DNA from: Candidatus Omnitrophota bacterium
GTDB lineage: Bacteria; Omnitrophota; Gorgyraeia; 2-01-FULL-45-10
Length of the DNA stretch: 64,000 nucleotides
Assembly: GCA_028699255.1 (NCBI GenBank)
Contig: JAQVUX010000004.1
Location: 24,668 to 88,667, forward strand
Reading direction: 5' to 3'
In this document: positions 19,719 through 36,669 of the stretch, one piece after another
Numbering within the stretch: position 1 is the stretch's first letter
Layout of the letters: each line of letters begins with the position of its first letter
The notes under the pieces: model-generated
Seen by the model: the letters and a program-made list of their open reading frames with translations, nothing else
Told to the model about the DNA's origin: nothing
Databases searched by the model: none
Position numbers and translations under genes: made by a program

Positions 19719-19906
19719 AAGGCGGCGAAGAGCTCTTAAAAATGCGGCCTGTTACACAACAATAAATTTTAACCCTGCCAGTAATTTTTAAAACCCTGTA
19801 AAAACTTTACATGTATTTTACTTCCCCTTGAAGCGGATTTAATATCCATATTCTATACTCCTGTTAGAAAACAAACGGCCCCCACATATACGGAAGGAGG
19901 TGAAGT

Positions 19907-20098: not shown

Positions 20099-20145
20099 AA
20101 TGTTGGATTGAAAAAAGAAAAAAACACAAACGGGAGAGTGATAAA

Positions 20146-21534: not shown

Positions 21535-21578
21535 CATCGCAAGTTTACGAATAATTCATAAAAAAAGAAGGGGGTAAC

Positions 21579-22523
21579 ATGAATAGATTTCTAACGGTGT
21601 TTCTAATAATTTCGCTCGGGCTCTTCAGCCATAGCTTCTGTTTTGGGGGTGAGAATATGGTGCAGGTCAAAGGATCCGACACTCTTATTAATGTGGTGCA
21701 GAAGCTGGCCGAGTTGTACATGGAGAAAGCTCCCGGCATAAGTATCGCGGTTACGGGTGGTGGATCCGGAACCGGCATAGCGGCCCTTATAAACAAAAAC
21801 TGCGCGATAGCAAATTCGTCCCGCCAGATAAAGTCCAGTGAAGTCGAGCAGGCGGTCAAGAAAGGGGTTGACGCGAAAAGAATGGTTGTGGCTATAGATG
21901 CTCTCAGTATTATAGTGAACGCCCAAAATCCGGTCGATGCTCTTACGGTAGAGCAGATCGGAAAAATATATAAAGGCGAAATAAAAAACTGGAGTGAGGT
22001 TGGAGGCAATAACCTTGCCATTACTCTCTACGGAAGGCAATCTAATTCCGGAACTTATGATTTTATGAAGGAAAACGTTATGTTCGGAGAATATTCTCCG
22101 AACCTTAAGAGCATGAACGGCAACGCCCAGATATCCGAGGCTCTAAAGCAGGATGCTTCGGGCATAGGTTATGTAGGCGTAGGTTACGCGAAAGAAGCTG
22201 TTGGAGTGAAGGCGCTTAAAGTCGCGGTTAAGAGCGGCGGCGCATATTATGATCCTTTCAATATAATGGATGTCAAAAGCGGGAGATATCCGATAACCAG
22301 GCCTCTGAATCAGTATATTAACGGCATGCCTAAAGGATTGGTAAAAGATTTCCTCGAGTTCGAATTAAGCTCCGAAGGCCAGGCGATAGTCGAGACGGAA
22401 GGTTTCTTCGCCATACCGGAAGAATACCAAACGTATAATGATCAGGTTCTGGGCCGATCCGGTAAGATAAGGGAAAGTCCTATGCGGCCCGAAGACCTGG
22501 AAGCAAATCTTGGCGCCGGATGA
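21579..22523 (+). CDS. pstS: Phosphate ABC transporter substrate-binding protein PstS
   Basis: Signal peptide, then GSDTL...GGGSGTG, characteristic of PstS/PBP. It is followed by pstCAB. Confidence 0.85.
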   Translation: MNRFLTVFLIISLGLFSHSFCFGGENMVQVKGSDTLINVVQKLAELYMEKAPGISIAVTGGGSGTGIAALINKNCAIANSSRQIKSSEVEQAVKKGVDAKRMVVAIDALSIIVNAQNPVDALTVEQIGKIYKGEIKNWSEVGGNNLAITLYGRQSNSGTYDFMKENVMFGEYSPNLKSMNGNAQISEALKQDASGIGYVGVGYAKEAVGVKALKVAVKSGGAYYDPFNIMDVKSGRYPITRPLNQYINGMPKGLVKDFLEFELSSEGQAIVETEGFFAIPEEYQTYNDQVLGRSGKIRESPMRPEDLEANLGAG

Positions 22524-22544
22524 AATACACAAAGAGGATGGGTT

Positions 22545-23435
22545 ATGTCCAGACATAATAATTTTAAAGAGAAGCTTATCCATGGCCTGTTCTTTTTTAA
22601 CGGGCTGTTGGTAATATTGGTGTTGGCGGGCATATTTGCGCTCTTGGTTGCAAACGCTCTCCCGGCTTTTAAAGAAATACGCGTAGGGCAATTCCTGTTC
22701 AGCGCGGCATGGAACCCGACGGCAACTTTTACGGCGCCCTCCTATGGGATACTATCCATGCTTGTCAGTACACTTATGGTATCCGCCGGGGCGCTTATTA
22801 TTGCGGTGCCGCTGGGTATAGCGGCGGCGGCTTATCTCTCCGATGTAGCAAGTAAGCGCGTCAGAGAGATCGCGAAGCCCATAGTGGAGATATTGGCGGG
22901 TGTACCTTCTGTAATTATCGGTTTTCTGGGAATAGTATTGGTAGGGCCGATCATTGCCAGGATATTTCATCTTTCGAACGGCCTGAATGCCCTTAACGGA
23001 TCAATATTGCTCGCGATCATGGCTTTACCGACCATCATAAGCTTATCGGAAGACGCGCTTAACGGTGTTCCCAAGTCATTCCAGGAGGCGTCGCTGGCAC
23101 TGGGAGCCACGCATTGGCAAACTCTCGTGAGGGTAAAGATACCGGCGGCGTTGTCCGGCATAATCGCGGCGAGCATGCTGGGAATGGGCAGGGCCATAGG
23201 CGAGACGATGACTGTTTTGATGGCGACTGGATGCGCCATCGCCATGCCGAAAAGTTTTTTGCAGTCGGTGCAGACGATGACCGCGACTATAGCCATCGAG
23301 CTGGGCGAGGTACCATATAACACCACTCACTATTATGCCCTTTTCGGCATAGGCCTAGTATTATTTATAATCACTTTCATCGTTAATATGATATCGGATA
23401 TCGTACTGCACAGGTACCAGAGGGTTTATAAATGA
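22545..23435 (+). CDS. pstC: Phosphate ABC transporter permease PstC
   Basis: Six TM helices and the EAA-like loop EASLALGATHWQT. It lies directly after pstS. Confidence 0.85.
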   Translation: MSRHNNFKEKLIHGLFFFNGLLVILVLAGIFALLVANALPAFKEIRVGQFLFSAAWNPTATFTAPSYGILSMLVSTLMVSAGALIIAVPLGIAAAAYLSDVASKRVREIAKPIVEILAGVPSVIIGFLGIVLVGPIIARIFHLSNGLNALNGSILLAIMALPTIISLSEDALNGVPKSFQEASLALGATHWQTLVRVKIPAALSGIIAASMLGMGRAIGETMTVLMATGCAIAMPKSFLQSVQTMTATIAIELGEVPYNTTHYYALFGIGLVLFIITFIVNMISDIVLHRYQRVYK

Positions 23436-24286
23436 AGGCAAAACAGATTCAGGAAAATTTGGGTTTTAATTTTCTCAGGTTGTCCATATGCGTCGTCATA
23501 TGCGCGTTGATAATCATCCTGTACGATATCGTAAGCAAAGGGATTGGCGTAATAAACTGGAAGTTTCTGACTTCCATGCCGAAGAACGGTATGACCGAAG
23601 GAGGCATACTTCCTGCCATAGTCGGCACTATTTTGGTTACGCTCATTACGGCGTTACTGGCAATTCCTTTAGGGATGGGGTGCGCAGTTTATTTGAATGA
23701 GTATGCCGCCGACAGCAAACTTACGCGGCTGATCCGTATGGCTATCCGTAATTTATCCGGCGTGCCGTCGATAGTGTACGGATTATTCGGCGTAATTTTA
23801 TTCGTCCAGATGATGAGGCTGGGTACATGTGTCTTATCCTCCGGGCTAACCCTCGGGCTCATGACTTTGCCATGGACCATTACTGCGAGCGAAGAGGCGC
23901 TGAAGAATGTGCCGAATTCGTACAGGCAGGGGGCTTTAGCGCTGGGCGCAACCAAGTGGCAGTCGATAAAAACGAATGTATTGCCGTACGCAGTCCCCGG
24001 TATGCTTACAGGCACGATACTCGGCCTCTCCCGCGCCGCCGGGGAGACGGCGCCGATCCTTTTCACGGGCGCCGCGTTCTTTTTACCGCGCCTTCCGGGA
24101 TCGCTTTTTGACCAATTTATGGCCCTGCCATATCATCTATATGTCATGTCCACACAACACCATGCCATATCAAAGGTAAGGCCCATCGCGTATGGGACGG
24201 CGCTGGTATTGATCGCGCTCGTATTTGCCATGAACCTGTGTGCTGTGATCATAAGATATCGTTTAAGAAAAGCCAGGACGGAGTGA
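23432..24286 (+). CDS. pstA: Phosphate ABC transporter permease PstA
   Basis: EAA loop [23 protein letters not shown]. It overlaps the pstC stop. Confidence 0.85.
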
Positions 24287-24290
24287 TGCT

Positions 24291-25049
24291 ATGGAAAATG
24301 TAAAAATAAGAGTCGGGCAGTTCAATTTTTATTACGGCCAGGCGCGTGTATTGAAAAACGTGTCGATGGATATCGCCGCGAATAAAGTGACGGGGATTAT
24401 CGGCCCGTCCGGTTGCGGCAAGTCGACGTTTTTGCGAAGCATAAACCGTATGAATGAAACTATACTCGGAACAAGGGCGGAAGGCCTGATAGCTCTTGAC
24501 GGCAAGAGCATTTATGATGAAGATGTCGATGTCGTGGATATAAGACGAAGGGTGGGGATGGTGTTTCAAAAATCCAACCCATTCCCTAAAACTATTTTTG
24601 ATAATGTTGCGTACGGGCTTAAGATAAACGGCATAAAGGACAAATATTTTATACAGGATAGGGTGGAGAGAAGCTTAAAAGATGCGGCGATATGGAGTGA
24701 GGTCAAAGATAGGTTGAATAGGAACGCGTTTGAATTGTCCGGCGGCCAACAGCAGAGGCTTTGCATTGCCAGGGCTTTGGCGGTCGAGCCGGAGGTTATC
24801 CTTATGGACGAGCCGGCATCGGCGCTGGATCCTACGGCGACATTAAAGATAGAAGAGCTCATCCAGGAGTTGAAGAAGAAATATACGATAGTCATAGTTA
24901 CGCACAACATGCAACAGGCCGCCAGGATATCCGATTTTACCGCTTTCTTTATGCTGGGCGAGCTCGTAGAATATAATCTGACCAGCATAATGTTTACCAA
25001 GCCGTCTAAAAAAATAACCGAGGATTATATAACGGGGAGATTCGGGTGA
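24291..25049 (+). CDS. pstB: Phosphate ABC transporter ATP-binding protein PstB
   Basis: Walker [10 protein letters not shown], signature LSGGQQQRL, Walker B ILMDEP. PstB-typical N-terminus. Confidence 0.9.
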
Positions 25050-25447
25050 AATATAAAAAGATAATTTTATACGGTGTCTTATGTTTTTTATTGTCATCCT
25101 GTGAAACAATAAAAGAGATAAGGCAAAGTGATGTGTTTAATAAAGCGGGACAATTTCGTCTAAACCCCGTCCATCCCAACACCTACTGGTTTAATGGTAA
25201 GACGTATGAGTATAACGATTACAAGATCGAGATCGTCTCCTGGCCCTGCAAAGTTCATGTAAAATGGGATGGTAAATATATAGGCGATACGCCGATGATA
25301 TATAGCTTTACCGGAACGCTGGATAAAGACGATGTCGTGAGGATGGTGGTTATACCTTTTGATGAAAGTTTTGGGCCGCAGGAAGCGGTTTTGAGGATAA
25401 GGGATGAACTTCCGAGAAAGATGGATTTTAAGCTCAACAAGAAATAG
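25046..25447 (+). CDS. Small lipoprotein of unknown function inserted between pstB and phoU
   Basis: Lipobox LLSSC after a hydrophobic signal peptide. No known domain. It overlaps the pstB stop (GTGA). Confidence 0.6.
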
Positions 25448-25461
25448 GAGGTACGGATAAT

Positions 25462-26130
25462 ATGGAACGACATTTTGACCAGGAGTTGAAAGAGCTTAAC
25501 AAAGATATTCTGAGAATGGGTTGTTATGCGGAAGAGGCGATATTCAAATCGATAGAGTCTCTCAAAAACCGCGACGCTTCGCTCGCCAAAAATGTGATCA
25601 AAGGCGATGCCGACGTTGATAAGCTGGAATTGGATATAGATGAGAAATGCATAGACCTGATCGCCCGTTATCAGCCGATGGCCAAGGACCTGCGTTTTAT
25701 CACGACAGGCATGAAGCTGAATACAGAGCTGGAGCGGATAGCCGATATAGCCGTCGATATCGCTCAGCGTTCGCTGGAACTCTCGAACAAGCCGCTTTTA
25801 AAGCCGCTTGTGGATATACCAAGGTTGACGGCTGTCGCGCAGGGTATGGTGAAGCTTTCAGTCGATTCATTCGTAAAACAGGACGTGGGATTAGCCAGAA
25901 AGGTAATACTATCCGACAGCGAAGCTGACCTTTTAAGAGATACTATCTCGAAAGAGCTCGTGGACGACTACATGATGAAAGACCCGTCTTCCGCCCCGAG
26001 AGCCGTTCAACTTCTCCTGATAACGCGCTTTCTGGAACGTATTTGCGACCACACCACCAATATAGCCGAAGACGTCATATATATGGTCCAGGCCGAAGTC
26101 GTAAAACATCATCCGGAAAAATTGGGATGA
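25462..26130 (+). CDS. phoU: Phosphate signalling complex protein PhoU
   Basis: Two PhoU repeats (the E...D...R..ERI.D motif occurs twice). The N-terminus MERHFDQELKELNKDILRMG is typical of PhoU. Confidence 0.85.
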   Translation: MERHFDQELKELNKDILRMGCYAEEAIFKSIESLKNRDASLAKNVIKGDADVDKLELDIDEKCIDLIARYQPMAKDLRFITTGMKLNTELERIADIAVDIAQRSLELSNKPLLKPLVDIPRLTAVAQGMVKLSVDSFVKQDVGLARKVILSDSEADLLRDTISKELVDDYMMKDPSSAPRAVQLLLITRFLERICDHTTNIAEDVIYMVQAEVVKHHPEKLG

Positions 26131-26146
26131 AGTTTTTAGGAATGCC

Positions 26147-26190
26147 TTGTCAAAAAATAATTGACAAACATAATCATGAATGGTATATAT
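26147..26190 (+). promoter_or_regulatory. Strong sigma70-type promoter(s) with an embedded inverted repeat TTGTCAAaaaaataaTTGACAA. It drives the riboswitch-thyX-nrdDG transcript.
   Basis: TTGTCA(26147-26152)-N17-ATAATC(26170-26175), and overlapping it TTGACA(26161-26166)-N17-TATATA(26184-26189). It is preceded by the conserved motif GAAGTTTTTAGGAATGCCTTG, shared with the promoter at 47078. Confidence 0.55.
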
Positions 26191-26199
26191 AACACATAA

Positions 26200-26335
26200 C
26201 TTTGGCAGGGAATTCGGCGAGAATCCGAAACTGTACCCGCAACTGTATACAGGCATATAATGTGACCTGTGAGTCAGAACGCGAAGTCCTCCGGGGATAG
26301 AGGTGCTAAAATAGTCTTAACAAGGAAGATTATTT
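26200..26335 (+). ncRNA. Leader element resembling the 5' half of a cobalamin riboswitch (GGGAA...CCCGCAACTGTA) but lacking a clear GCCACTG/B12 box. It ends in an intrinsic terminator.
   Basis: GGGAAttcGGcGaGAATCCgaaaCTGtaCCCGCAACTGTA at 26208-26247 matches the conserved J3/4-P4 region of RF00174. The 3' half does not match. Confidence 0.3.
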
Positions 26336-26373
26336 GACCCAACCTCTATGAAAAAGGTTGGGTTTTTTGTTTT
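26336..26373 (+). terminator. Rho-independent terminator (CCCAACC-loop-GGTTGGG + TTTTTTGTTTT)
   Basis: Stem 26338-26344 / 26356-26362, followed by a T-run 26363-26373. Confidence 0.7.
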
Positions 26374-26394
26374 ACAATACAAATATATACAGGT

Positions 26395-26631
26395 CCTGCT
26401 TAAAGCAGGATAAAAGGGAAGCTTGTAAAGTCAAGCGCGGTCCCGCCGCTGTAACCGGGGACGAAAGTCACAACTAGCCACTGTCTAGTATTCATTAGGC
26501 GGGAAGGCGTGATGAGTAGACTGATCCGGCAGCCAGAAGACCTGCCTGTATGTGTAGCCTCGCGGAAGGATTAAGTAAGCAGGGTGCAATCCTTAAGCTT
26601 TTTATAATTAGCTTAAGGATTTTTTTATTTT
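26395..26631 (+). ncRNA. Cobalamin (AdoCbl) riboswitch with a transcriptional expression platform, upstream of thyX-nrdD-nrdG
   Basis: In order: GGGAA (26416-26420), CCCGCCGCTGTAA (26442-26454), GCCACTG (26477-26483), GGGAAGGC (26501-26508) and the B12 box AGCCAGAAGACCTGCC (26531-26546). Then an antiterminator hairpin AAGGATT...AATCCTT (26566-26594) that is mutually exclusive with a terminator CCTTAAGC...GCTTAAGG + T-run (26591-26631). Confidence 0.75.
26591..26631 (+). terminator. Riboswitch-controlled intrinsic terminator
   Basis: CCTTAAGC (26591-26598), loop tttttataatta, GCTTAAGG (26611-26618), followed by ATTTTTTTATTTT. Confidence 0.65.
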
Positions 26632-26877
26632 ATGCGAATCAACGTATTAACCGATAAACCTACAGATAGTATTTTGAAAAGTTTATTTCAAGAGGATTTT
26701 TCGCTTGTCAGGGAGCAAATACTGGAAGCACTTACTTGCGAACCGGACAAAAATAAACTCTTTGGAGTTATTCTATGTGAGCATTTTAAGAAAGTCAAAG
26801 AATGTGAGAATCTTAGTCTAAAAATAATCGCATTAAAAAACGTATTAATGGCGTTGGATTATCTGGGAGAGCAGTGA
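26632..26877 (+). CDS. Hypothetical small protein (81 aa) in the AT-rich leader between the riboswitch and thyX. It may be non-coding.
   Basis: The ORF starts immediately after the terminator T-run with no RBS. AT-rich. No known motif. Confidence 0.25.
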   Translation: MRINVLTDKPTDSILKSLFQEDFSLVREQILEALTCEPDKNKLFGVILCEHFKKVKECENLSLKIIALKNVLMALDYLGEQ

Positions 26878-26880: not shown

Positions 26881-27036
26881 ATGCCTAATAGAACAATTTT
26901 GTTAGATGAAAAAGAATTAATTGAGCTTCAGAGGATTTTGCTGGATAAAGACGAAAAGGGCGCATTAGAGTTTTTAAGAAAAATCGAAGAGAGATCAAAG
27001 CCATCAAAGAGCGTATGCAGGCCTTGGGGCAAATAA
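26881..27036 (+). CDS. Hypothetical small protein (51 aa)
   Basis: Weak GGAGAG RBS. Translates to MPNRTILLDEKELIELQRILLDKDEKGALEFLRKIEERSKPSKSVCRPWGK. Not in the ORF track because it is under 60 aa. Confidence 0.2.
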   Translation: MPNRTILLDEKELIELQRILLDKDEKGALEFLRKIEERSKPSKSVCRPWGK

Positions 27037-27051: not shown

Positions 27052-27804
27052 ATGACACAGGTGAAATTACATGTAGAATTATTGGATTTTTCACAGAATG
27101 CCTTGTCTATAATCTATGCGTCATGTCGGCAGTGTTATTCGGCGGATTTTGCCGGGAAGATATTTGCCGATGGCCTTAAGGACGCATCGAAACAGGAAGA
27201 ATTTGTACGGCAGGTCGTCTCTTCGGGGCATGAGAGCCCCCTTGAGCATGTGAAGTTTACCTTTGCCATTGAAGGCGTATCAAGGGCGTTAACTCATCAG
27301 CTTGTAAGGCACAGGATAGCTTCATATTCCCAGCAGAGCCAAAGATATGTAAAAGAAACCTCTTTTGACTACATTATCCCGCCTTCAATAGAATCCGATG
27401 AAGAGATGAAGAGGGAATACATCGGCGTTATGCATAAGATCCAGGATAGTTATAACAATCTGTTAAAGCTGTTTGAGAAAAAAGGCAAGAAGGGCGAAGC
27501 GGCAAATCAGGATACGCGTTTTGTACTACCTCAAGCGGCAGAGACAAAGATAGTCGTGACTATGAATTGCAGGGAACTGAAACATTTCTTCGAAGAGCGG
27601 TGCTGCACCCGGGCGCAGTGGGAAGTTAGGAAACTGGCTGAAGAAATGCTAAAGATATGCAAACAGGAGTTGCCCGCTGTTTTTAATAATTCTGGGGCAA
27701 AATGTATAAAACTTGGATATTGTCCGGAAGGCACGAAATTTACATGTAAGAAGTACCCGTTAAAAGAAGAAGCCCTTGGAGGTAAGTATGCCGATGCTCG
27801 TTGA
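27052..27804 (+). CDS. thyX: Flavin-dependent thymidylate synthase ThyX
   Basis: ThyX signature RHRIASYSQQSQRY (RHRx7-8S). RBS AAAGGAGG upstream. Confidence 0.9.
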   Translation: MTQVKLHVELLDFSQNALSIIYASCRQCYSADFAGKIFADGLKDASKQEEFVRQVVSSGHESPLEHVKFTFAIEGVSRALTHQLVRHRIASYSQQSQRYVKETSFDYIIPPSIESDEEMKREYIGVMHKIQDSYNNLLKLFEKKGKKGEAANQDTRFVLPQAAETKIVVTMNCRELKHFFEERCCTRAQWEVRKLAEEMLKICKQELPAVFNNSGAKCIKLGYCPEGTKFTCKKYPLKEEALGGKYADAR

Positions 27805-29896
27805 AAATATGTTTAAAAAAATAGTAAAAAGGGATGGCTCCGAAGAAGAGTTTGATTCCAGGAAGATTGTAAATGCTATAAATAAAGCAGGAGTTGCGGC
27901 GGGGGAGTTCGGTATTGATGCTGCCGAAAAGTTGGCTGACAAGGTTTTGAATACAGCCTTTCAGTTTACCGTTAACGACAATCCGTCAGTCGAAATGATG
28001 CAGGATATCGTGGAAGAGGTGCTTATAGCCTCTCCCTATAAAAAAGCCGCCAAGGCGTTCATTTTATATAGAGATGAACATGCCAGGATACGGGAAATTA
28101 CATCGAAGTTTAACGTTAATCTTGTGGATCAATACATCAATAACATGGATTGGCAGGTAAAAGAGAACAGTAATATGGGTTTTTCTTTGCAGGGGCTTAA
28201 TAATTATCTTTCTTCGGAAGTGAGCAAGATATACTGGCTCAATAAAATTTACACCAATAATATTAAGGAAGCTCATTTGGGCGGAGATTTTCATATCCAC
28301 GACCTTGGCATTTTAAGCGCATATTGCGTCGGATGGGATCTTCAGGATCTGCTTCTCACGGGATTTAAAGGTGTCAGAGGCAAGGCGGAGGCGAAGCCGG
28401 CAAAACATCTTCGAACAGCATTAGGACAGATAGTGAATTTCTTTTATACGCTTCAAGGGGAGGCGGCAGGCGCTCAGGCCTTTTCGAATTTCGATACATT
28501 ATTGGCCCCGTTCATACATTACGATAATTTAGATTATAAGGCCGTAAAACAGGCGCTGCAGGAGTTCCTCTTTAACGTGAATGTTCCCACGCGCGTAGGT
28601 TTTCAAACGCCTTTTACTAATATAACGCTCGACTTGACGATTCCGTCGTATTTTAAGGATCAGCCGGTAATAATAGGAGGTGAGCAGCAGTCAAAAACGT
28701 ATAAGGAATTTACAAAAGAAATGGATATGTTCAACAGGGCGTTCCTGGAAGTGATGTTGGAAGGTGACGCCAAGGGTAGGGTATTTACTTTTCCGATCCC
28801 GACCTATAACATATCGAAAGATTTTGATTGGGATAATTCAAACTTGTCTTTATTGTGGGAGGTAACCGCCAAATATGGGATACCTTATTTCGCGAACTTC
28901 GTTAACTCCGATATGAATCCGGAAGATGCCCGTAGCATGTGCTGCCGTCTGCGTATCGATAATCGCGAGCTTCGCAAGCGTGGGGGAGGGCTGTTCGGCT
29001 CGTCACCGCTAACCGGCTCCATAGGTGTGGTGACCATAAATATGCCGCGGCTTGGGTACTTGTCCAAAAGCGAAGATGAGTTTTTTGCCAGGCTGGATAA
29101 ACTCATGCGCATGGCAAAAGCAAGCCTCAGGATTAAGAGAAAAATGCTGGAGCAATTAACCGCAAATGATCTTTATCCTTATGTTAAGTTTTATCTTAGG
29201 AATGTTCATCAGCGTTTTGGGGAATATTGGAAGAATCATTTTTCTACGATAGGACTTACAGGCATGAACGAGGCCTGTCTTAATTTTTTGGGGGAAGATA
29301 TCGGCTCAAAACGTGGAAGGGAATTTGCTTTGAAAGTTATGGATTTTATGAGGGATAAGCTCCTGGAGTTTCAAAAAGAAACAGGTGATAACTACAATCT
29401 TGAGGCTACCCCCGCCGAAGGGACGTCTTACAGGCTTGCTAAACTTGATAAAGAAAAATATCCGGGGATCATAGATGCTAATAATATTAAAACGGATGGC
29501 AAAAAACCGTCATTCTACACGAACTCAACCCAGCTTCCAGTAAACTATACCGACGATCTTTTTAAATTGCTGGATCTTCAGGATGCGCTTCAGGCAAAAT
29601 ACACAGGTGGAACGGTCCAGCATCTTTTTATCGGTGAAAGGATAAGCAATACGGACGCGCTTAAAAGCCTGATTAAAAAAATATGTACAAGATTTCACCT
29701 GCCGTATTTTTCGATTACGCCGACCTTCAGCGTTTGCCCATCGTGTGGTTACATGGCCGGTGAAGTACAAGTATGTCCTACCTGTAAAAGTGTGTGTGAA
29801 GTGTATTCGAGGATCGTGGGATATTTACGTCCGGTAGTCCAATGGAACGACGGCAAGCAGGCCGAATTTAGCATGAGGAAGACATTAAAAATATGA
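27788..29896 (+). CDS. nrdD: Anaerobic ribonucleoside-triphosphate reductase (class III RNR) NrdD
   Basis: N-terminal ATP-cone. C-terminal zinc ribbon CPSCGY...CPTCKS. Glycyl-radical motif RIVGYLRPV. The start is taken at ATG 27788 (RBS GGAGG 27778-27782), overlapping the thyX end. Confidence 0.9.
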   Translation: MPMLVENMFKKIVKRDGSEEEFDSRKIVNAINKAGVAAGEFGIDAAEKLADKVLNTAFQFTVNDNPSVEMMQDIVEEVLIASPYKKAAKAFILYRDEHARIREITSKFNVNLVDQYINNMDWQVKENSNMGFSLQGLNNYLSSEVSKIYWLNKIYTNNIKEAHLGGDFHIHDLGILSAYCVGWDLQDLLLTGFKGVRGKAEAKPAKHLRTALGQIVNFFYTLQGEAAGAQAFSNFDTLLAPFIHYDNLDYKAVKQALQEFLFNVNVPTRVGFQTPFTNITLDLTIPSYFKDQPVIIGGEQQSKTYKEFTKEMDMFNRAFLEVMLEGDAKGRVFTFPIPTYNISKDFDWDNSNLSLLWEVTAKYGIPYFANFVNSDMNPEDARSMCCRLRIDNRELRKRGGGLFGSSPLTGSIGVVTINMPRLGYLSKSEDEFFARLDKLMRMAKASLRIKRKMLEQLTANDLYPYVKFYLRNVHQRFGEYWKNHFSTIGLTGMNEACLNFLGEDIGSKRGREFALKVMDFMRDKLLEFQKETGDNYNLEATPAEGTSYRLAKLDKEKYPGIIDANNIKTDGKKPSFYTNSTQLPVNYTDDLFKLLDLQDALQAKYTGGTVQHLFIGERISNTDALKSLIKKICTRFHLPYFSITPTFSVCPSCGYMAGEVQVCPTCKSVCEVYSRIVGYLRPVVQWNDGKQAEFSMRKTLKI

Positions 29897-30483
29897 AAGT
29901 AGGGGGCTTGCAGAAACTTTCGCTTATAGACTATCCTGGAAAGACGTGCGCGGTAATATTCACACAAGGATGTAATTTCCGATGTGGCTATTGTCATAAT
30001 TTGGAGCTTGTCTATACGGAGTTTTTTACCGAGCCGATTCCTTTCGAACGTGTACATGAATTTCTTAAAGAGAAGGCGGGGTTATTAGACGGTGTGGTTT
30101 TTTCCGGAGGAGAGCCGACTCTGCAGGAAGATCTTATTGACAGGATCCAAGATGTTCGTTCTTTAGGATATGCCGTAAAACTTGATACGAACGGAAGCAA
30201 CCCCTATATTTTATCGGAGATTTTGCCATATCTTGATTATGTTGCCATGGACATCAAGGCTCCTATCGGGGATAAATATGCGCGTGTATGCGGCACGCCG
30301 GTTGATGATTACAATATACGCGTGAGTATATTTTTAATAAAGGCATCGGGAATTCGGCATGAGTTCAGAACGACGTTTGATAAAAAATTGCTGATAAATC
30401 CAGATATCATAAAGATTAAGAATTTAATTGGTAAATCAAGGTTTAATCTGCAGGAATGCGCGGATAGAAAAACTTCCTTATAA
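29893..30483 (+). CDS. nrdG: Anaerobic RNR-activating radical SAM protein NrdG
   Basis: CNFRCGYCHN (CxxxCxxC) radical-SAM motif. ATGA overlap with nrdD. Confidence 0.88.
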   Translation: MKVGGLQKLSLIDYPGKTCAVIFTQGCNFRCGYCHNLELVYTEFFTEPIPFERVHEFLKEKAGLLDGVVFSGGEPTLQEDLIDRIQDVRSLGYAVKLDTNGSNPYILSEILPYLDYVAMDIKAPIGDKYARVCGTPVDDYNIRVSIFLIKASGIRHEFRTTFDKKLLINPDIIKIKNLIGKSRFNLQECADRKTSL

Positions 30484-30557
30484 AAACATCTTGACAAGAA
30501 TAGATGAATAGTGTATTCTTGATATTGAAAACCATTATCATTAAGGAGTGTATTGAT

Positions 30558-31031
30558 ATGCCAAGAGGAAACGGACAAGGCCCAGCATGGTGGCACGGAA
30601 GGTTTAAAGGTTGCGGTTACAGGATAACTGTCGGTCGTGAAGCTATTCTGGATGTGCTTACCAAAGCCGATAGGCATTTAAGCGCCGAAGATATATATAT
30701 GAAGGTGCATGCGGCGTATCCAGCGATAGGGCTTACCACTATATATAGGACGCTTGAGATCCTTGTTAATATGGGACTAGTATTCAAGTTCGACTTTGGT
30801 GATGGCAGGGCACGGTATGAACTGGCCGAAGGATCGAATAGAAGCACTCACCACCATCACTTGATATGCACTAATTGTAAAAGAGTGGTCGATTATACCG
30901 ACTTCATAGATGATGAGATAGAGTTGCTCCATAAGACGGAAAAAGGACTTTCCGAAAAGTACGATTTCGCAATTACAAACCATTTAATCCAATTTTATGG
31001 CTTATGTGATAAATGCAAGAAAAAGAAGTAG
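30558..31031 (+). CDS. fur: Fur-family transcriptional regulator (ferric uptake regulator-like)
   Basis: HHHHLICTNCKRV...CDKC metal-binding motifs. Winged-helix N-terminus. The start is taken at ATG 30558 after the RBS TTAAGGAG. The ORF track gives an earlier start at 30504. Confidence 0.8.
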   Translation: MPRGNGQGPAWWHGRFKGCGYRITVGREAILDVLTKADRHLSAEDIYMKVHAAYPAIGLTTIYRTLEILVNMGLVFKFDFGDGRARYELAEGSNRSTHHHHLICTNCKRVVDYTDFIDDEIELLHKTEKGLSEKYDFAITNHLIQFYGLCDKCKKKK

Positions 31032-31055
31032 GGGGAGATATATTTTTTTCGATAT

Positions 31056-31078
31056 AAATGGAAATGATTTTCATTAAC
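31056..31078. promoter_or_regulatory. Candidate Fur box (AAATGGAAATGATTTTCATTAAC) upstream of the DUF5320/NifX-like Fe-S gene cluster
   Basis: It contains the inverted repeat AATGAtttTCATT, resembling the Fur-box core AATGATAATCATT. A second Fur-box-like CCATTATCATTAA lies at 30536-30548, overlapping the fur RBS. Confidence 0.3.
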
Positions 31079-31106
31079 AGAAACTTAAGAAAAGGAGGTG
31101 ATTAAG

Positions 31107-31391
31107 ATGCCAGGAGGAGATGGAACAGGTCCAATGGGTATGGGCCCGATGACCGGTGGCGGGAGAGGGTTTTGCGTTGCTCCTGTATCCAGCATAAGGC
31201 CGAGATCGTTTGGAAGAGGCTACGGCAGGGGTTGGGGAAACCAGCTCTATGCCACAGGTCTTCCTCGTTGGGCAAGAGGTGCCAACGAAGCTGAAGTGTT
31301 GAAGGAAGAGGCTGGTTTTCTCAAAGAAGAGCTCAAGGCGGTCGAAGATCGTATTGAGACGCTGGAGAAGGCCCAAACATCCGCAGGATAA
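31107..31391 (+). CDS. DUF5320-family protein (Gly/Pro/Met-rich N-terminus, coiled-coil C-terminus)
   Basis: MPGGDGTGPMGMGPMTGGGRGFC is typical of DUF5320. RBS AAGGAGG at 31092-31098. Confidence 0.6.
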   Translation: MPGGDGTGPMGMGPMTGGGRGFCVAPVSSIRPRSFGRGYGRGWGNQLYATGLPRWARGANEAEVLKEEAGFLKEELKAVEDRIETLEKAQTSAG

Positions 31392-31481
31392 ATGGCGGAT
31401 AGGAGTGGAGCGCCAAGCGCGCAGTGCTCCATTCCTTGGGCATTGTGTTTATCGACATCAATATAACAAAAGAGGTGTGCT

Positions 31482-31844
31482 ATGAGATTAGGTATAACGC
31501 TTGAAGACCAGAGCGGTCTTCAGGGTAATGTTGCCGAGCATTTTGGGCAGTGTAAATATTTTTTTCTGCTGGACATTGAGAATAATAAAGTGAAGAGCAG
31601 TAGAATAGTTGAGAATACGGCAGTGCATGGCGGCGGAGGATGTATAGCCGTAGATGAATTGCTGAAATACAACGTTACCCATGTTATTGCAGGCGGGATG
31701 GGTGGCGGCGCTCAACAAAAATTCGCTCAAGCAGGCGTGAAAGTTTTCGGTTATTCAGGTAAAACAAAAGATGCGATAGATGATTTTTTGACAAATAAGA
31801 TTGGCGGGTTGGGCGCGTGTAAGGAACATGGCACATGCCACTAA
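31482..31844 (+). CDS. NifX/NifB-like dinitrogenase FeMo-cofactor-binding domain protein (COG1433 family)
   Basis: HFGQCKYFFLLDIEN...GGGG...VIAGGMGGGAQQKFAQAGVKV is the PF02579 pattern. Confidence 0.75.
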   Translation: MRLGITLEDQSGLQGNVAEHFGQCKYFFLLDIENNKVKSSRIVENTAVHGGGGCIAVDELLKYNVTHVIAGGMGGGAQQKFAQAGVKVFGYSGKTKDAIDDFLTNKIGGLGACKEHGTCH

Positions 31845-31857
31845 AGGAGAGTCGATT

Positions 31858-32235
31858 ATGAAGATCTGCGTGACATCGGAAGGTAAAACGCTCGATTCTA
31901 AAATAGATCCCCGTTTTGGAAGGTGCCAATATTTCGTATTTGTTGACACGGATACTTTAGATTTAGAAGCGGTTGAAAACCCGAATATGCAATTTCAGGG
32001 CGGCGCCGGAATTCAATCAGGGCAACTTATGATATCCAGGGGCGTAAAAGCCGTTCTGACCGGGAATGTCGGCCCTAACGCTTTTCAGACGCTGCAGGCA
32101 GGCGGTATAAAGATATATACCGGCCTTTCGGGGAAGGTCCGGAATGCTGTCGAAAATTATAAGAGCGGGGAATTAAAAACTACGGAAAACCCGAGCGTAG
32201 GGTCTAAATTCGGGATGCCGGGTAAAAATAAATAA
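31858..32235 (+). CDS. Second NifX/NifB-like domain protein
   Basis: RFGRCQYFVFVDTD...GGAG...AVLTGNVGPNAFQTLQAGGIKIY. RBS AAGGAGAG upstream. Confidence 0.75.
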   Translation: MKICVTSEGKTLDSKIDPRFGRCQYFVFVDTDTLDLEAVENPNMQFQGGAGIQSGQLMISRGVKAVLTGNVGPNAFQTLQAGGIKIYTGLSGKVRNAVENYKSGELKTTENPSVGSKFGMPGKNK

Positions 32236-32252
32236 AACCAGGGAGGTTAAAT

Positions 32253-32504
32253 ATGCCGTTTTTTGAGCCGTTAGAAAAGATGGATCCTAAACATGTTGAC
32301 TTGGAACGCGATAGGAAATCGTTAAGGGAAGAACTCGAAGCTATCGATTTCTATCAGGAGAGGATAGACGCCACAAGTGATGATTCCTTAAAGAAACTTC
32401 TCGCGCATAATATGAATGAGGAAAAAGAACACGCGGCCATGATTATAGAGTGGCTAAGGAAGAATGACGCGACACAAAACAAGATGTTTGATGAGCATGA
32501 TTAA
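32253..32504 (+). CDS. Small ferritin-like di-iron protein (encapsulated-ferritin EncFtn-like / rubrerythrin-like four-helix motif)
   Basis: EELEAIDFYQERIDAT...HNMNEEKEHAAMIIEWL shows the ExxH / E..AI..Y pattern of EncFtn-type ferritin-like proteins. RBS GGGAGG upstream. Confidence 0.5.
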   Translation: MPFFEPLEKMDPKHVDLERDRKSLREELEAIDFYQERIDATSDDSLKKLLAHNMNEEKEHAAMIIEWLRKNDATQNKMFDEHD

Positions 32505-33117: not shown

Positions 33118-33126
33118 ACAAGAATT

Positions 33127-35481: not shown

Positions 35482-35484
35482 AAT

Positions 35485-36662: not shown

Positions 36663-36669
36663 GGGGAAC

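What the first reader, a model, noticed from the sequence alone, without database searches (positions are those of the whole stretch)
26395..26631. Cobalamin riboswitch with an antiterminator/terminator switch controlling a thyX-nrdD-nrdG operon
All conserved AdoCbl-riboswitch blocks are present in canonical order:
- GGGAA at 26416
- CCCGCCGCTGTAA at 26442
- GCCACTG at 26477
- GGGAAGGC at 26501
- the B12 box AGCCAGAAGACCTGCC at 26531

They are followed by two mutually exclusive hairpins: AAGGATT..AATCCTT at 26566-26594, versus CCTTAAGC..GCTTAAGG plus a T-run at 26591-26631. B12 riboswitches upstream of nrdDG or nrdAB are known from comparative genomics in organisms that also carry the B12-dependent class II RNR. 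Here the regulated operon additionally begins with thyX. That would place de novo dTMP synthesis and anaerobic dNTP synthesis under a single coenzyme-B12 signal, which is an unusual regulatory logic.
Basis: partly seen in the sequence, partly recalled or inferred. Interest (0 to 1): 0.75.

Follow-up and report, generated by a model that had tools for sequence, protein, structure and literature searches.

The report
Tandem B12 riboswitches controlling thyX-nrdDG
The reported vitamin-B12 riboswitch is real, but it is the second of two different B12 riboswitches in one mRNA leader, which together probably shut off a thymidylate synthase (thyX) and anaerobic ribonucleotide reductase (nrdDG) operon when B12 is available; relatives of this uncultured bacterium also keep thyX under B12 control, which is the unusual part.

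Summary
Confirmed. Window 26374-26563 (+) is a full-length class-I cobalamin riboswitch (RF00174, 118.5 bits, E 4e-29). All five sequence blocks sit at the stated coordinates. The terminator (26588-26621 plus U-run) and the competing hairpin (26566-26594) are real.

Three things were missed:
- A second, short class-II-like cobalamin riboswitch lies upstream (aptamer about 26199-26287). It has its own P13/kissing loop, antiterminator and terminator (26336-26373) and follows a conserved promoter (26161-26189). The leader is therefore a tandem of two complete OFF switches.
- Two conserved small ORFs (81 and 51 aa) precede thyX.
- The link from aptamer 2 to its platform is a mini P13 hairpin (26558-26569). 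Its loop CG(C)GGA pairs with L5 UCCCG.

About 30 related expression platforms support P13 to antiterminator to terminator logic. All of them sit upstream of B12 synthesis or uptake genes.

The tandem recurs in a relative (L092). Riboswitch 1 alone drives thyX-nrdDG in another (L127). In 9 of 14 sampled contexts of Omnitrophota-like ThyX orthologues, thyX lies in a B12 operon (btuB-exbBD-tonB, metE, nrdDG).

The riboswitch is a known kind. The mixed-architecture tandem and the thyX membership are the new parts. Ligand specificity and the presence of nrdJ or thyA are untested.

The parts
26161..26189 (+). Sigma-70-type promoter of the leader: -35 TTGACA (26161-26166), 17-nt spacer, -10 TATATA (26184-26189) preceded by TGg. 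The inferred transcription start is about 26196.
   Evidence: Read from the sequence. The same TTGACA-N17-TATAT(A/G) sits at the same distance from aptamer 1 in L127, and TTGACA in L092. The consensus scan missed it because its rule requires T at -10 position 6.
26199..26287 (+). Riboswitch 1 aptamer: a short, class-II-like cobalamin aptamer.
- P4 26213-26217 / 26225-26229.
- L5 UACCCG 26234-26239.
- P6 CUG/CAG 26243-26245 / 26275-26277.
- Short hairpin in place of the P7-P11 extension, 26249-26253 / 26266-26270.
- B12-box-like GAGUCAGAAC.
- Candidate closing stem ACUUUG/CGAAGU 26199-26204 / 26282-26287.
   Evidence: RF00174 at 26209-26282 scores 29.9 bits (cut-off 31.5), E 1e-5, with model positions 47-167 and the 56-nt extension replaced by 8 nt. 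The orthologue in L092/L129 scores 35.3 bits, above the cut-off, and the one in L127 scores 31.3 bits. A three-way alignment is 90% identical, and in L092 the short hairpin stem is swapped from ACAGG/CCUGU to GCCGGC/GCCGGC.
26288..26303 (+). Riboswitch 1 P13/L13: CCUC [CGGGGAUA] GAGG. CGGG (26292-26295) is complementary to L5 CCCG (26236-26239).
   Evidence: The full-length fold forms this hairpin (fourth sequence). The L5 and L13 complement is kept in L092 and L127, where L13 is CGGGAAUA. It has the same form as P13/L13 of riboswitches that repress in reporters.
26297..26349 (+). Riboswitch 1 antiterminator: AUAGAGGU (26297-26304) pairs with ACCUCUAU (26342-26349). It shares GAGG with P13 and ACCU with the terminator.
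   Evidence: It forms when the terminator 3' arm is withheld: -20.6 kcal/mol, z -3.08 (fifth sequence). The pairing is kept with wobbles in L092 (GUCUCUAU) and L127 (AUCUCUAU).
26336..26373 (+). Riboswitch 1 intrinsic terminator: GACCCAACCU / AGGUUGGGUU (26336-26345 / 26355-26364), then UUUUUGUUUU.
   Evidence: -14.5 kcal/mol, z -3.49. The stem is kept with changed pairs in L092 (ACCCAGUCUC/GAGGUUGGGU) and L127.
26374..26563 (+).
- P1 26387-26394 / 26544-26551.
- P2 arm 26395-26410.
- L5 UCCCG 26441-26445.
- Long P6 extension.
- B12 box 26531-26546.
   Evidence: RF00174 at 118.5 bits, E 4.3e-29, full model. Orthologues: L005 at 72 bits although truncated and L092 at 105.8 bits.
26558..26569 (+). 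Riboswitch 2 P13/L13: CCU [CGCGGA] AGG. The loop pairs with L5 as U41-A66, C42-G65, C43-G64, C63 bulged, C44-G62, G45-C61. The 3' arm AGG (26567-26569) is part of the antiterminator's 5' arm.
   Evidence: - It fits the CCUx-CG(N)Gxx-xAGG form of P13/L13 in reporter-validated repressing riboswitches.
- In 18 related platforms the stem flanking CG(N)GG(A/C) is at least 5 bp in 67%, against 6.6% in flank-shuffled controls.
- L5 variants with GCCCG carry CGUGGC, a change on both sides (L024, L069).
26566..26594 (+). Riboswitch 2 antiterminator hairpin: AAGGAUU / AAUCCUU with a 15-nt loop that contains the conserved CAGGGUGCA (26580-26588).
   Evidence: It forms when the terminator 3' arm is withheld. 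The helix covaries across relatives: GGAUU/AAUCC, GGGUU/AACCC, GGGC/GCCC, GAGGAU/AUCCUC, GGGAA/UUCCC. On the alignment 83% of cells are paired against 34-62% when the partners are slid, and 2 pairs change on both sides.
26588..26631 (+). Riboswitch 2 intrinsic terminator: AAUCCUUAAGCU / AGCUUAAGGAUU (26588-26599 / 26610-26621) plus a U-run. Its 3' arm holds the only Shine-Dalgarno-like AAGGA (26615-26619), 12 nt before the ATG at 26632.
   Evidence: -15.0 kcal/mol, z -4.97. It is nearly identical in L005 and structurally kept with changed pairs in L092, L097, L074 and others.
26632..26877 (+). Small ORF of 81 aa, the first gene of the operon, function unknown.
   Evidence: ORF list. It is called as a gene on the source contig L004. 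There are two homologue clusters at 90% and 79% identity, both in B12-type operons upstream of thyX or metE-thyX. No Pfam match even at E<=1.
26881..27036 (+). Small ORF of 51 aa, function unknown, always immediately upstream of thyX.
   Evidence: It is 84% and 80% identical in L005 and L128. Its 3' end survives as a remnant in L127. No Pfam match.
27052..27804 (+). thyX, flavin-dependent thymidylate synthase.
   Evidence: Pfam Thy1 at 232 bits. ThyX motif RHRIASYSQQSQR. The identical protein is named FAD-dependent thymidylate synthase in an NCBI Candidatus Omnitrophica MAG.
27776..29896 (+). nrdD, class III (anaerobic) ribonucleoside-triphosphate reductase with an N-terminal ATP-cone. The likely start is 27788, as called on L004.
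   Evidence: Pfam NRDD at 674 bits and ATP-cone at 78 bits. C-terminal CxxC...CxxC and RIVGY. Gene call on L004.
29893..30483 (+). nrdG, the radical-SAM activase of NrdD.
   Evidence: Pfam Radical_SAM and Fer4_12. CNFRCGYC motif.

Best explanation
One promoter (26161-26189) drives a leader of about 435 nt that carries two complete cobalamin riboswitches in series. Behind them lies the operon sORF81-sORF51-thyX-nrdD-nrdG.

**The two switches**
- Riboswitch 1 has a short, class-II-type aptamer.
- Riboswitch 2 has a long, class-I-type aptamer.
- Each has its own P13 hairpin, antiterminator and intrinsic terminator.

**Mechanism of each switch (inferred)**
- With corrinoid bound, the aptamer's L5 loop kisses the L13 loop and locks the small P13 hairpin.
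- P13 shares its 3' arm with the 5' arm of the antiterminator. The antiterminator therefore cannot form, the terminator does, and transcription stops at about 26365-26373 or about 26622-26631.
- Without ligand, the 3-4 bp P13 melts, the antiterminator takes the terminator's 5' arm, and polymerase reads through.
- In riboswitch 2 the terminator's 3' arm also holds the only SD-like sequence for the first ORF. Translation may therefore be gated as well.

**Combined logic**
The switches act independently. The operon is made only if neither has captured ligand: a steeper and tighter OFF response if both sense the same corrinoid, a NOR gate if they prefer different forms.

**Physiological reading (inferred)**
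When B12 is scarce, the cell makes B12-independent DNA-precursor enzymes, namely class III RNR and ThyX.

**Shown versus inferred**
- Shown: sequence and structure membership, alternative pairings, conservation and covariation, gene content.
- Inferred: ligand binding, direction of regulation, co-transcription.
For: **The elements**
- Aptamer 2: RF00174 at 118.5 bits.
- Aptamer 1: 29.9 bits here with E 1e-5. The orthologue scores 35.3 bits, above the cut-off, in L092/L129.
- In L127, riboswitch 1 is the sole riboswitch directly upstream of thyX-nrdDG, with the same promoter.
- Both terminators fold far better than shuffles, and both antiterminators form when the 3' arm is withheld.
- The promoter scan finds no + strand site between the leader promoter region and the thyX start codon, where the only other hit lies (27052-27079), and only ORFs under 40 aa lie in the leader.

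**The tandem and its coupling element**
- The tandem is conserved in L092 with compensatory changes in P6/P7, the terminator and the antiterminator.
- P13/L13 of riboswitch 2 matches the pattern in reporter-validated repressing riboswitches (Kennedy 2022, Data Set S1).
- P13 stems are enriched over shuffled controls, 67% against 6.6% at 5 bp or more.
- L5 U to G goes with L13 A to C.
- The antiterminator helix covaries.

**Direction of regulation**
- The first genes after about 20 platforms of this family are CobU, BtuF-like, BtuC-like, CbiM, ThiC-family, CobC-like and TonB-dependent receptors. These are all classes known to be repressed by B12 riboswitches.
- nrdDG under a cobalamin riboswitch alongside nrdJ is documented in P. 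acnes (PMC3848588).
- Tandem AdoCbl riboswitches with separate expression platforms are a known architecture (PMC9481103).
Against: - No experiment: ligand binding, termination and co-transcription are all inferred.
- Aptamer 1 is just under the Rfam cut-off in this window, and its closing stem needs a one-nucleotide register shift between WIN/L127 and L092.
- P13 of riboswitch 2 is only 3 bp here.
- Its antiterminator (-9 kcal/mol) is weaker than the terminator (-15 kcal/mol). Read-through without ligand therefore needs kinetic control or extra stabilisation.
- In L092 the L13 of riboswitch 2 is CGAAAGA, a poor match to L5.
- In a sister sub-family, P13 and the antiterminator are adjacent but do not overlap. 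The coupling is therefore not fully explained by secondary structure.
- The antiterminator loop is itself conserved and complementary to L5, and this is unexplained.
- The L5/L13 double change probably reflects a single evolutionary event.
- Presence of nrdJ, or of a second thymidylate synthase, is unknown.
Confidence: 0.75

Rival explanations
1. Only riboswitch 2 is functional. The upstream element is a decaying relic or a chance resemblance that merely adds a leaky terminator.
For: Aptamer 1 scores 29.9 bits, below the 31.5 cut-off. It lacks an unambiguous P1/P3. The whole-window gathering scan reports only one riboswitch.
Against: - The same element scores above the cut-off in L092/L129.
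- It is 90% conserved across three genomes, with a fully swapped hairpin stem in L092.
- It keeps L5/L13 complementarity, the antiterminator and the terminator in all three genomes.
- In L127 it is the only riboswitch in front of thyX-nrdDG.
Confidence: 0.1
2. Riboswitch 2 is an ON switch. The AAGGAUU/AAUCCUU hairpin is the real P13, and its loop CAGGG kisses L5. Ligand then locks this hairpin, which blocks the terminator and gives read-through with B12.
For: - The hairpin's loop motif C(N)GGGUG(C/A)A is conserved in about 30 platforms. It is complementary to L5 CCCG and resembles the S. thermophilum L13 CGGGUGAA.
- Its 3' arm is always the start of the terminator's 5' arm.
- The terminator is thermodynamically dominant.
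Against: - Every sampled member of this platform family precedes B12 synthesis or uptake genes, never a B12-dependent enzyme. ON logic makes no physiological sense there, or for nrdDG.
- A separate upstream hairpin has the canonical P13/L13 form, a covarying stem and an L5-matched double change.
- In the window's sub-family that hairpin overlaps the antiterminator's 5' arm, which is classic OFF wiring.
Confidence: 0.05
3. B12 control of thyX is a by-product. thyX simply travels with nrdDG, or sits at the tail of B12 operons, without selection for B12-responsive dTMP synthesis. It is mainly expressed from other promoters or by leaky read-through.
For: - The thyX-nrdD adjacency exists without any riboswitch or B12 genes in L001, where znuABC lies upstream. 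L003 also has nrdD-nrdG-thyX with no riboswitch, although a periplasmic-binding-protein gene lies downstream of thyX.
- 4 of 14 sampled ThyX contexts show no B12 link (L001, L131, L132, L134) and one is ambiguous (L003).
- thyX is essential if it is the only thymidylate synthase, so tight repression would be harmful.
Against: - thyX stays inside B12 operons even where nrdDG is absent: btuB-exbBD-tonB-thyX-cobC-like in L129, a near-identical layout in L133, metE-thyX in L130, and split-metH-like-thyX-btuR in L089.
- Start and stop codons abut tonB in L129.
- No promoter-like site was found between the leader and thyX in the window.
Confidence: 0.35

Closest known systems
Class-I (AdoCbl) cobalamin riboswitch, Rfam RF00174, e.g. 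T. tengcongensis 4GMA, S. thermophilum cblT, transcriptional Bacillus-type switches
   Same: Riboswitch 2 has every model element: P1, the P2 arm, the P3-P6 junction, the long P6 extension and the B12 box. It also has an L5-complementary L13 in a small P13 hairpin, followed by an intrinsic terminator.
   Different: Between P13 and the terminator, the platform carries a conserved antiterminator hairpin. The loop of that hairpin is itself L13-like, a motif absent from the 38 validated riboswitches of Kennedy 2022. P13 is only 3 bp, and the kissing loop has one bulged base.
Class-II cobalamin riboswitches (Cbl-IIa env8 HyCbl/MeCbl type; Cbl-IIb AdoCbl type), as defined in PMC7367189
   Same: Riboswitch 1 lacks the P2 loop-stem-loop. 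It has only a short hairpin in place of the P7-P11 extension, while keeping the P4/L4, P5/L5, P6 and B12-box core and an L5-L13 kissing loop.
   Different: Its best Rfam match is a gapped RF00174 alignment, not the variant families. The IIa/IIb subclass, and therefore the ligand preference, cannot be read from the sequence. P1/J1/3 is poorly defined.
Tandem riboswitches with separate expression platforms (TPP-TPP, AdoCbl-AdoCbl, SAM-I/AdoCbl NOR gate on metE; Sudarsan 2006, Sherlock 2022 PMC9481103)
   Same: Two complete OFF switches sit in one 5' UTR, each with its own terminator. The predicted behaviour is independent action that gives a sharper response or a NOR gate.
   Different: The two units here are different architectural classes of the same ligand family. 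Sherlock 2022 lists AdoCbl-AdoCbl tandems but places the AqCbl class among those with no tandem arrangement. Like-with-like long tandems do occur in my metagenome sample: L019, L034, L037, L038 and L082.
B12 riboswitch control of B12-independent isozymes (metE; nrdAB; nrdDG, e.g. P. acnes, PMC3848588)
   Same: nrdDG lies behind a cobalamin riboswitch. In relatives, metE lies in the same operons.
   Different: thyX is included, and it has no known B12-dependent counterpart. Full-text searches for thyX together with riboswitch and cobalamin found no report of such control. Whether nrdJ exists in this genome is unknown.

Membership tests
Cobalamin riboswitch, class I (RF00174) - riboswitch 2 | Covariance-model score at or above the curated gathering score, over the full model | tested here: met
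   118.5 bits against 31.5, model positions 1-189, E 4.3e-29.
Cobalamin riboswitch, class I (RF00174) - riboswitch 2 | P2 loop-stem-loop module and large P6 (P7-P11) extension around the P3-P6 four-way junction with the B12 box (definition in PMC7367189) | tested here: met
   The alignment to the model shows P2 at 26395-26410, the extension at 26455-26530, and the B12 box AGCCAGAAGACCUGCC.
Cobalamin riboswitch, class I (RF00174) - riboswitch 2 | L5-L13 kissing loop to a P13 hairpin in the expression platform | tested here: met
   - UCCCG (26441-26445) pairs with CG(C)GGA (26561-26566) in 5 bp with one bulge.
- This is the same form as in validated riboswitches.
- P13 stems are enriched over controls.
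- GCCCG goes with CGUGGC in L024 and L069.
- This is complementarity and covariation only, not a structure.
Cobalamin riboswitch, class I (RF00174) - riboswitch 2 | Binds adenosylcobalamin and represses the downstream genes | not testable with these tools
   It needs binding and transcription assays. OFF direction is inferred from the gene content of the platform family.
Cobalamin riboswitch, class II architecture - riboswitch 1 | Recognisable cobalamin core (P4/L4, P5/L5, P6, B12 box) by covariance model | tested here: inconclusive
   - 29.9 bits against a 31.5 cut-off in the window, with E 1e-5 in a 701-nt search.
- Orthologues score 35.3 bits in L092/L129, which passes, and 31.3 bits in L127.
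Cobalamin riboswitch, class II architecture - riboswitch 1 | No P2 loop-stem-loop; only a loop or short hairpin extending P6 (PMC7367189) | tested here: met
   Only about 10 nt lie between the inferred start and the core. The 56-nt extension of the model is replaced by 8 nt inside a 5-bp hairpin.
Cobalamin riboswitch, class II architecture - riboswitch 1 | Subclass and ligand: IIa binds HyCbl/MeCbl, IIb binds AdoCbl | not testable with these tools
   The sequence does not settle J1/3 or the adenosyl pocket. Binding assays are needed.
Tandem riboswitches with separate expression platforms | Two aptamers in one 5' UTR with no promoter or real ORF between them, each followed by its own intrinsic terminator | tested here: met
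   The two terminators fold at -14.5 and -15.0 kcal/mol, each with a U-run. The promoter scan finds no + strand site between 26175 and 27051, and only ORFs of 39 aa or fewer lie there. The same layout occurs in L092.
Tandem riboswitches with separate expression platforms | Both units lie on one transcript and each terminates in response to ligand | not testable with these tools
   It needs transcript mapping and in vitro termination assays.
B12-regulated 'B12-independent isozyme' regulon | The regulated gene has a B12-dependent counterpart (nrdJ for nrdDG) encoded in the same genome | not testable with these tools
   Only 64 kb of the genome is available, and none of the roughly 45 largest ORFs is nrdJ. 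The source MAG contig (168 kb) could not be fetched.

The most novel reading that the evidence does not exclude
Two linked novelties are not excluded by the evidence.

1. The two units are not redundant. The short class-II-type aptamer and the long class-I aptamer may prefer different corrinoid forms, for example aquo/methyl against adenosyl, or base-on against base-off. The leader would then be a natural two-input NOR gate on the chemical state of B12. That would be the first mixed-class cobalamin tandem.

2. This Omnitrophota-like lineage has wired thymidylate synthase ThyX into the B12 regulon, together with B12 uptake, MetE and NrdDG. This would be a riboswitch-level counter-measure to the methylfolate trap: with low B12, folate is trapped as methyl-THF, dTMP synthesis is threatened, and ThyX is raised.

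A further open item is that the conserved, L5-complementary loop of the antiterminator may be a second, competing kissing partner that holds the ON state.
Probability: 0.3. Interest if true: 0.65.

Novelty: new variant of a known kind. Interest (0 to 1): 0.45.

Why it matters
Three things go beyond that.

- **A mixed-architecture tandem.** A systematic survey of tandem riboswitches did not list this arrangement. It offers a compact natural system to ask whether cells distinguish forms of B12.

- **ThyX sits repeatedly inside B12-controlled operons.** ThyX has no B12-dependent counterpart, yet in an uncultured phylum its gene lies next to B12 uptake genes, metE and nrdDG. This points to a physiological coupling between B12 supply and dTMP synthesis in bacteria. 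The methylfolate trap is known to cause thymineless death (PMC5070874). The coupling could be tested directly with reporters.

- **Two conserved, unannotated small proteins accompany thyX.** In addition, a widespread expression-platform family has an unexplained second L13-like loop.

Tried and rejected
1. **AAGGAUU/AAUCCUU as P13.** I first read this hairpin as P13, because its loop has GGG opposite L5 CCC. That reading makes riboswitch 2 an ON switch. I rejected it for three reasons:
   - comparison with validated P13/L13 sequences;
   - a covarying upstream mini-hairpin with an L5-matched change;
   - the gene content of the platform family.

2. **GCCU/GGGU helix.** The minimum-free-energy fold suggested it (26557-26560 with 26582-26585). 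It is not kept in L005, L097 or L110, so I dropped it.

3. **Small repeats in the leader.** Complementarity of the P4 strand AAGCUU to the terminator, and the repeat AAGCAGG in P2 and the platform, are at chance level for 6-7-mers in a 250-nt leader and are not conserved.

4. **Genome scan with ThyX**. It gave only 3 MAG loci, with no Rfam hit at E<=0.01. By eye, L002 nevertheless has a short cobalamin aptamer with a large insertion, so that negative was partly a sensitivity failure.

5. **Exact-match metagenome pattern**. These were useful for the platform family but gave only one further tandem (L092).

6. **Simple terminator scan**. It missed both terminators because their loops are 9-10 nt, so I used folding instead.

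7. **Antiterminator-loop motif in the validated set.** It is absent from Kennedy 2022.

8. **Small ORFs.** Pfam finds nothing for the two small ORFs at E<=1.

9. **nrdJ, btu or cob genes in the window.** None is among the roughly 45 largest ORFs.

10. **Rfam variant families for aptamer 1.** The tool keeps only the best clan member, so their scores could not be seen.
Full report
**1. The observation**

The region was read directly.

A gathering-threshold Rfam scan of the whole 64-kb window returns exactly one hit:
- RF00174 (Cobalamin) at 26374-26563 on the + strand;
- 118.5 bits against a cut-off of 31.5, E 4.3e-29;
- the full model (positions 1-189), untruncated.

Folding confirms the strong hairpin AAUCCUUAAGCU/AGCUUAAGGAUU (26588-26599 / 26610-26621). 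It folds at -15.0 kcal/mol, z -4.97, and is followed by seven U. When that 3' arm is withheld, AAGGAUU/AAUCCUU (26566-26572 / 26588-26594) forms instead.

**2. What lies downstream**

- thyX at 27052-27804: Pfam Thy1, 232 bits, ThyX motif RHRIASYSQQSQR.
- nrdD at 27776/27788-29896: ATP-cone plus NRDD, 674 bits, C-terminal zinc ribbon and RIVGY.
- nrdG at 29893-30483: radical SAM, CNFRCGYC.
- A fur-family gene follows after 20 nt.

- Both are called as genes on the public contig that carries the identical ThyX (L004).
- The 81-aa protein has two homologue clusters at 90% and 79% identity.
- The 51-aa protein is 80-84% identical in two other genomes and always lies immediately upstream of thyX.
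- Neither matches any Pfam family, even at E<=1.

The identical ThyX is named in NCBI as coming from a Candidatus Omnitrophica MAG. The closest genome hits are Omnitrophota MAGs.

**3. A second riboswitch upstream**

A permissive Rfam search of 26050-26750 finds a second RF00174 match at 26209-26282.
- It scores 29.9 bits, just under the cut-off, with E 1e-5.
- It covers model positions 47-167, and the 56-nt peripheral extension is replaced by 8 nt.
- It is a short aptamer with no P2 arm and only a small hairpin on P6. That is the class-II architecture as defined in PMC7367189.

A full expression platform follows it:
- a hairpin CCUC[CGGGGAUA]GAGG (26288-26303), whose loop CGGG is complementary to L5 CCCG (26236-26239);
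- an antiterminator AUAGAGGU/ACCUCUAU (26297-26304 / 26342-26349), which forms when the terminator's 3' arm is withheld (-20.6 kcal/mol, z -3.08);
- a terminator GACCCAACCU/AGGUUGGGUU plus a U-run (26336-26373; -14.5 kcal/mol, z -3.49).

A near-consensus promoter, TTGACA-N17-TATATA (26161-26189), precedes it. Apart from the leader promoter region, the scan's only + strand promoter-like hit lies at the thyX start codon (27052-27079), so nothing serves the operon between the two aptamers or before thyX.

**4. Is riboswitch 1 real?**

Three lines of evidence say yes.
- In L092/L129, a 646-kb metagenome contig, the same element scores 35.3 bits, above the cut-off. It lies in the same tandem, in front of a class-I aptamer of 105.8 bits.
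- In L127 (ThyX 88% identical) the same promoter, aptamer, P13, antiterminator and terminator are the only riboswitch, and they sit directly in front of thyX-nrdD-nrdG.
- The three copies are 90% identical. In L092 the small hairpin stem is completely exchanged (ACAGG/CCUGU to GCCGGC/GCCGGC), while the L5/L13 complement, antiterminator and terminator are kept with wobble or compensating changes.

L127 still carries the last codons of the 51-aa ORF and the thyX ribosome-binding site. The tail after its terminator (UUUUUUUAUUUUAUGCG) is the tail of the window's second terminator. L127 therefore looks like a deletion derivative of a window-like arrangement.

**5. How riboswitch 2 is coupled to its platform**

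*First reading, rejected.* I first took AAGGAUU/AAUCCUU for P13, because its loop contains GGG opposite L5 CCC. That would make the switch an ON switch, which is at odds with the genes controlled.

*Comparative data.* The metagenome scan yielded about 30 distinct platforms of the same family. They share this order of elements:
1. A small hairpin whose loop is CG(N)GG(A/C).
2. A second hairpin with a conserved loop ending in C(N)GGGUG(C/A)A.
3. A terminator whose 5' arm always begins with the 3' arm of the second hairpin.

*The first hairpin is P13.*
- It has the form of P13/L13 in riboswitches that repress in a B. subtilis reporter, for example GCCUU-CGAGGAA-AAGG and ACCUA-CGGGAGA-UAGG (Kennedy 2022, Data Set S1).
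- Its loop pairs with L5 UCCCG in five base pairs with one bulged, variable base.
- Where L5 is GCCCG, the loop is CGUGGC (L024, L069).
- Its stem changes freely while staying paired: CCUUCA/UGAAGG, ACUCCA/UGGGGU, CCUUUCC/GGAAAGG, GUUUCC/GGAAAU and others.
- Stems of 5 bp or more occur in 67% of platforms, against 6.6% of flank-shuffled controls.

*The second hairpin is the antiterminator.*
- It covaries as well: GGAUU/AAUCC, GGGUU/AACCC, GGGC/GCCC, GAGGAU/AUCCUC.
- On the alignment, 83% of cells are paired against 34-62% when the partners are slid, and two pairs change on both sides.

*The wiring in the window.* In the window and its sub-family (L005, L074, L027, L097, L110, L041, L022), the 3' arm of P13 overlaps the 5' arm of the second hairpin. 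In the window P13 is CCU[CGCGGA]AGG at 26558-26569. The wiring is therefore P13 (anti-antiterminator), then antiterminator, then terminator. This is the same as in riboswitch 1 and in validated OFF switches.

*Direction of regulation.* The first genes behind about 20 family members are CobU, BtuF-like, BtuC-like, CbiM, ThiC-family, CobC-like phosphatase, TonB-dependent receptors and similar. All are B12 synthesis or uptake genes, which B12 riboswitches are known to repress. None is a B12-dependent enzyme. This settles the direction as OFF, by inference.

**6. What remains unexplained in the platform**

- The antiterminator in the window is weaker than the terminator (-9 against -15 kcal/mol).
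- In a sister sub-family, P13 and the antiterminator are adjacent but do not overlap.
- The antiterminator's loop is conserved, is itself complementary to L5 CCCG, and resembles the L13 of S. thermophilum.
- That loop motif is absent from the validated set.
- One possibility is a second kissing contact that holds the ON state until ligand locks L13. This is speculation.
- In L092 the L13 of riboswitch 2 is CGAAAGA, a poor partner for L5. That copy may be weakened.

**7. Most likely mechanism**

One transcript starts near 26196 and meets two independent OFF switches.
- Corrinoid bound to aptamer 1 terminates transcription at about 26365-26373.
- Corrinoid bound to aptamer 2 terminates it at about 26622-26631.
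- Full-length mRNA for sORF81-sORF51-thyX-nrdD-nrdG is made only if both read through.
- The second terminator's 3' arm also contains the only SD-like AAGGA, 12 nt before the first start codon. Translation may therefore be gated too.

Tandem AdoCbl riboswitches with separate platforms are a known architecture that sharpens the response (PMC9481103). In my sample, like-with-like long tandems occur in L019, L034, L037, L038 and L082. What differs here is that the two units belong to different architectural classes. The same review lists the AqCbl class among those never seen in tandem. Whether aptamer 1 prefers another corrinoid form cannot be told from sequence.

**8. The gene set: thyX and B12**

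nrdDG behind a cobalamin riboswitch is documented, for example in P. acnes, which also has nrdJ (PMC3848588). thyX is not documented in this role. Full-text searches for thyX together with riboswitch and cobalamin found nothing relevant.

In relatives, thyX is repeatedly found inside B12 operons of different layout:

| Locus | Layout |
|---|---|
| L005 | class-I riboswitch with the same platform, DUF4430, short cobalamin aptamer, TonB-dependent receptor, TonB-like, sORF82, sORF51, thyX |
| L128 | btuF-btuC-btuD-btuR, DUF4430, short aptamer, receptor, exbB-exbD-tonB, sORF51, thyX, 360-aa protein, nrdD-nrdG |
| L129 = L092 | tandem, receptor, exbBD-tonB, thyX, CobC-like phosphatase |
| L130 | btuR-btuFCD, DUF4430, receptor, metE, thyX |
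| P0002 contig | receptor ... sORF, metE, thyX |
| L089 | riboswitch, Hcy-methyltransferase plus pterin-binding proteins, thyX, btuR, riboswitch, cobQ |
| L002 / L133 | (btuFCD-btuR) DUF4430, short aptamer, receptor, exbBD-tonB, thyX |
| L127 | riboswitch 1, thyX-nrdDG |

Contexts with no B12 link are L001 (znuABC-thyX-nrdD), L131 (glycine-cleavage genes-thyX), L132 and L134. L003 is ambiguous.

The tally is 9 of 14 sampled contexts, concentrated among the closest orthologues. The link persists where nrdDG is absent, so it is not only hitch-hiking with nrdDG.

A plausible rationale is the methylfolate trap. Without B12-dependent methionine synthase, folate accumulates as methyl-THF and dTMP synthesis suffers, and in bacteria this promotes thymineless death (PMC5070874). 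Raising ThyX when B12 is scarce would counter this. This is inference. The alternative, a second thymidylate synthase used when B12 is plentiful, could not be checked.

**9. What could not be tested**

- Ligand binding.
- Termination.
- Co-transcription.
- Presence of nrdJ, metH or thyA in the genome.

Within the window, none of the roughly 45 largest ORFs is nrdJ or a btu/cob gene. Compared with its relatives, the window's operon appears to have lost the uptake genes that lie between the riboswitch and the small ORFs in L005. The alignment is identical up to UUUUAUUUUAUG and then diverges.

**10. Verdict**

- The element itself is an ordinary member of a very well known family.
- The additions are a mixed-architecture tandem, the P13/kissing-loop wiring, two conserved small ORFs, and a lineage-wide placement of thyX in the B12 regulon. 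These make it a variant worth a modest follow-up.

Noticed in passing
window 26881-27036 (+); L005 3692-3847; L128 7830-7985: A 51-aa ORF (MPNRTILLDEKELIELQRILLDKDEKGALEFLRKIEERSKPSKSVCRPWGK) is 80-84% identical in three genomes. It always lies directly upstream of thyX and has no Pfam match at E<=1. A remnant of its 3' end survives in L127.
   Followed up: partly
window 26632-26877 (+): An 81-aa ORF starts at the ATG that directly follows the second terminator's U-run. Its only two homologue clusters (90% and 79% identity) also sit in B12-type operons, upstream of sORF51-thyX or metE-thyX. No known domain.
   Followed up: partly
window 26573-26588 (loop of the antiterminator); same position in about 30 loci (e.g. 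L016, L036, L074, L090, L097): The antiterminator hairpin loop carries a conserved motif, ..AAGUAAA-C(N)GGGUG(C/A)A. It is complementary to L5 CCCG and resembles a canonical L13. It is absent from the 38 reporter-validated riboswitches of Kennedy 2022. It may be a second, competing kissing loop.
   Followed up: partly
L127 4451-4720: L127 has only riboswitch 1 in front of thyX-nrdDG. The tail after its terminator (TTTTTTTATTTTATGCG) equals the tail of the window's second terminator, and a remnant of sORF51 precedes thyX. It looks like a deletion of riboswitch 2 and both small ORFs by recombination between the two terminator tails.
   Followed up: partly
L005 762-885; L128 4079-4202; L002 ~195-385; L092 ~5930-5750 (minus strand): A third, different short cobalamin-like aptamer (23.9-31.8 bits) sits between DUF4430 and the TonB-dependent receptor gene, with the ribosome-binding site right after it. 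In L002 and L092 its P6 hairpin carries an insertion of about 100 nt, and Rfam misses it at E<=0.01.
   Followed up: partly
L089 7473-11451 (minus strand): The order is: a cobalamin riboswitch (125 bits), separate Hcy S-methyltransferase and pterin-binding proteins (MetH-like modules with no B12-binding domain seen), thyX, btuR, a second riboswitch (88 bits), then cobQ. This is another unexpected thyX neighbourhood.
   Followed up: no
L128 8740-9822: A 360-aa protein with no significant Pfam match (weak URO-D, E 0.21) is inserted between thyX and nrdD in a B12 uptake operon.
   Followed up: no
L131 1032-7717: In a 78%-identical orthologue, thyX follows the glycine-cleavage genes gcvT-gcvH-gcvP1-gcvP2, lplA and a radical-SAM gene. 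This is a folate (methylene-THF-producing) neighbourhood rather than a B12 one.
   Followed up: no
window 30504-39372 and 40405-45412: Downstream of nrdG lies a metal and Fe-S cluster region:
- fur (30504-31031);
- two Nitro_FeMo-Co-domain genes (31482-32235);
- a SAM methyltransferase (32464-33117);
- two MinD/ParA-like 4Fe-4S NTPases (33127-34856);
- a MetF-C-terminal-like DUF5981 protein plus DUF2099 (34825-36330);
- feoB (37642-39372);
- a second fur (40405-40878);
- znuA and an ABC-3 permease (42861-45412).
   Followed up: no
window 17925-26130: Immediately upstream of the leader is a phosphate-regulon block on the same strand. It includes a PhoR/PnpS-type histidine kinase (17925-19718), a run of + strand ORFs at 21579-25447 that I did not annotate, and phoU (25462-26130). 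The leader promoter starts only 30 nt after the phoU stop codon.
   Followed up: no
L019, L034, L037, L038, L082: Like-with-like tandems of two long class-I cobalamin aptamers, 310-420 nt apart on the same strand, occur in several unrelated metagenome contigs.
   Followed up: no
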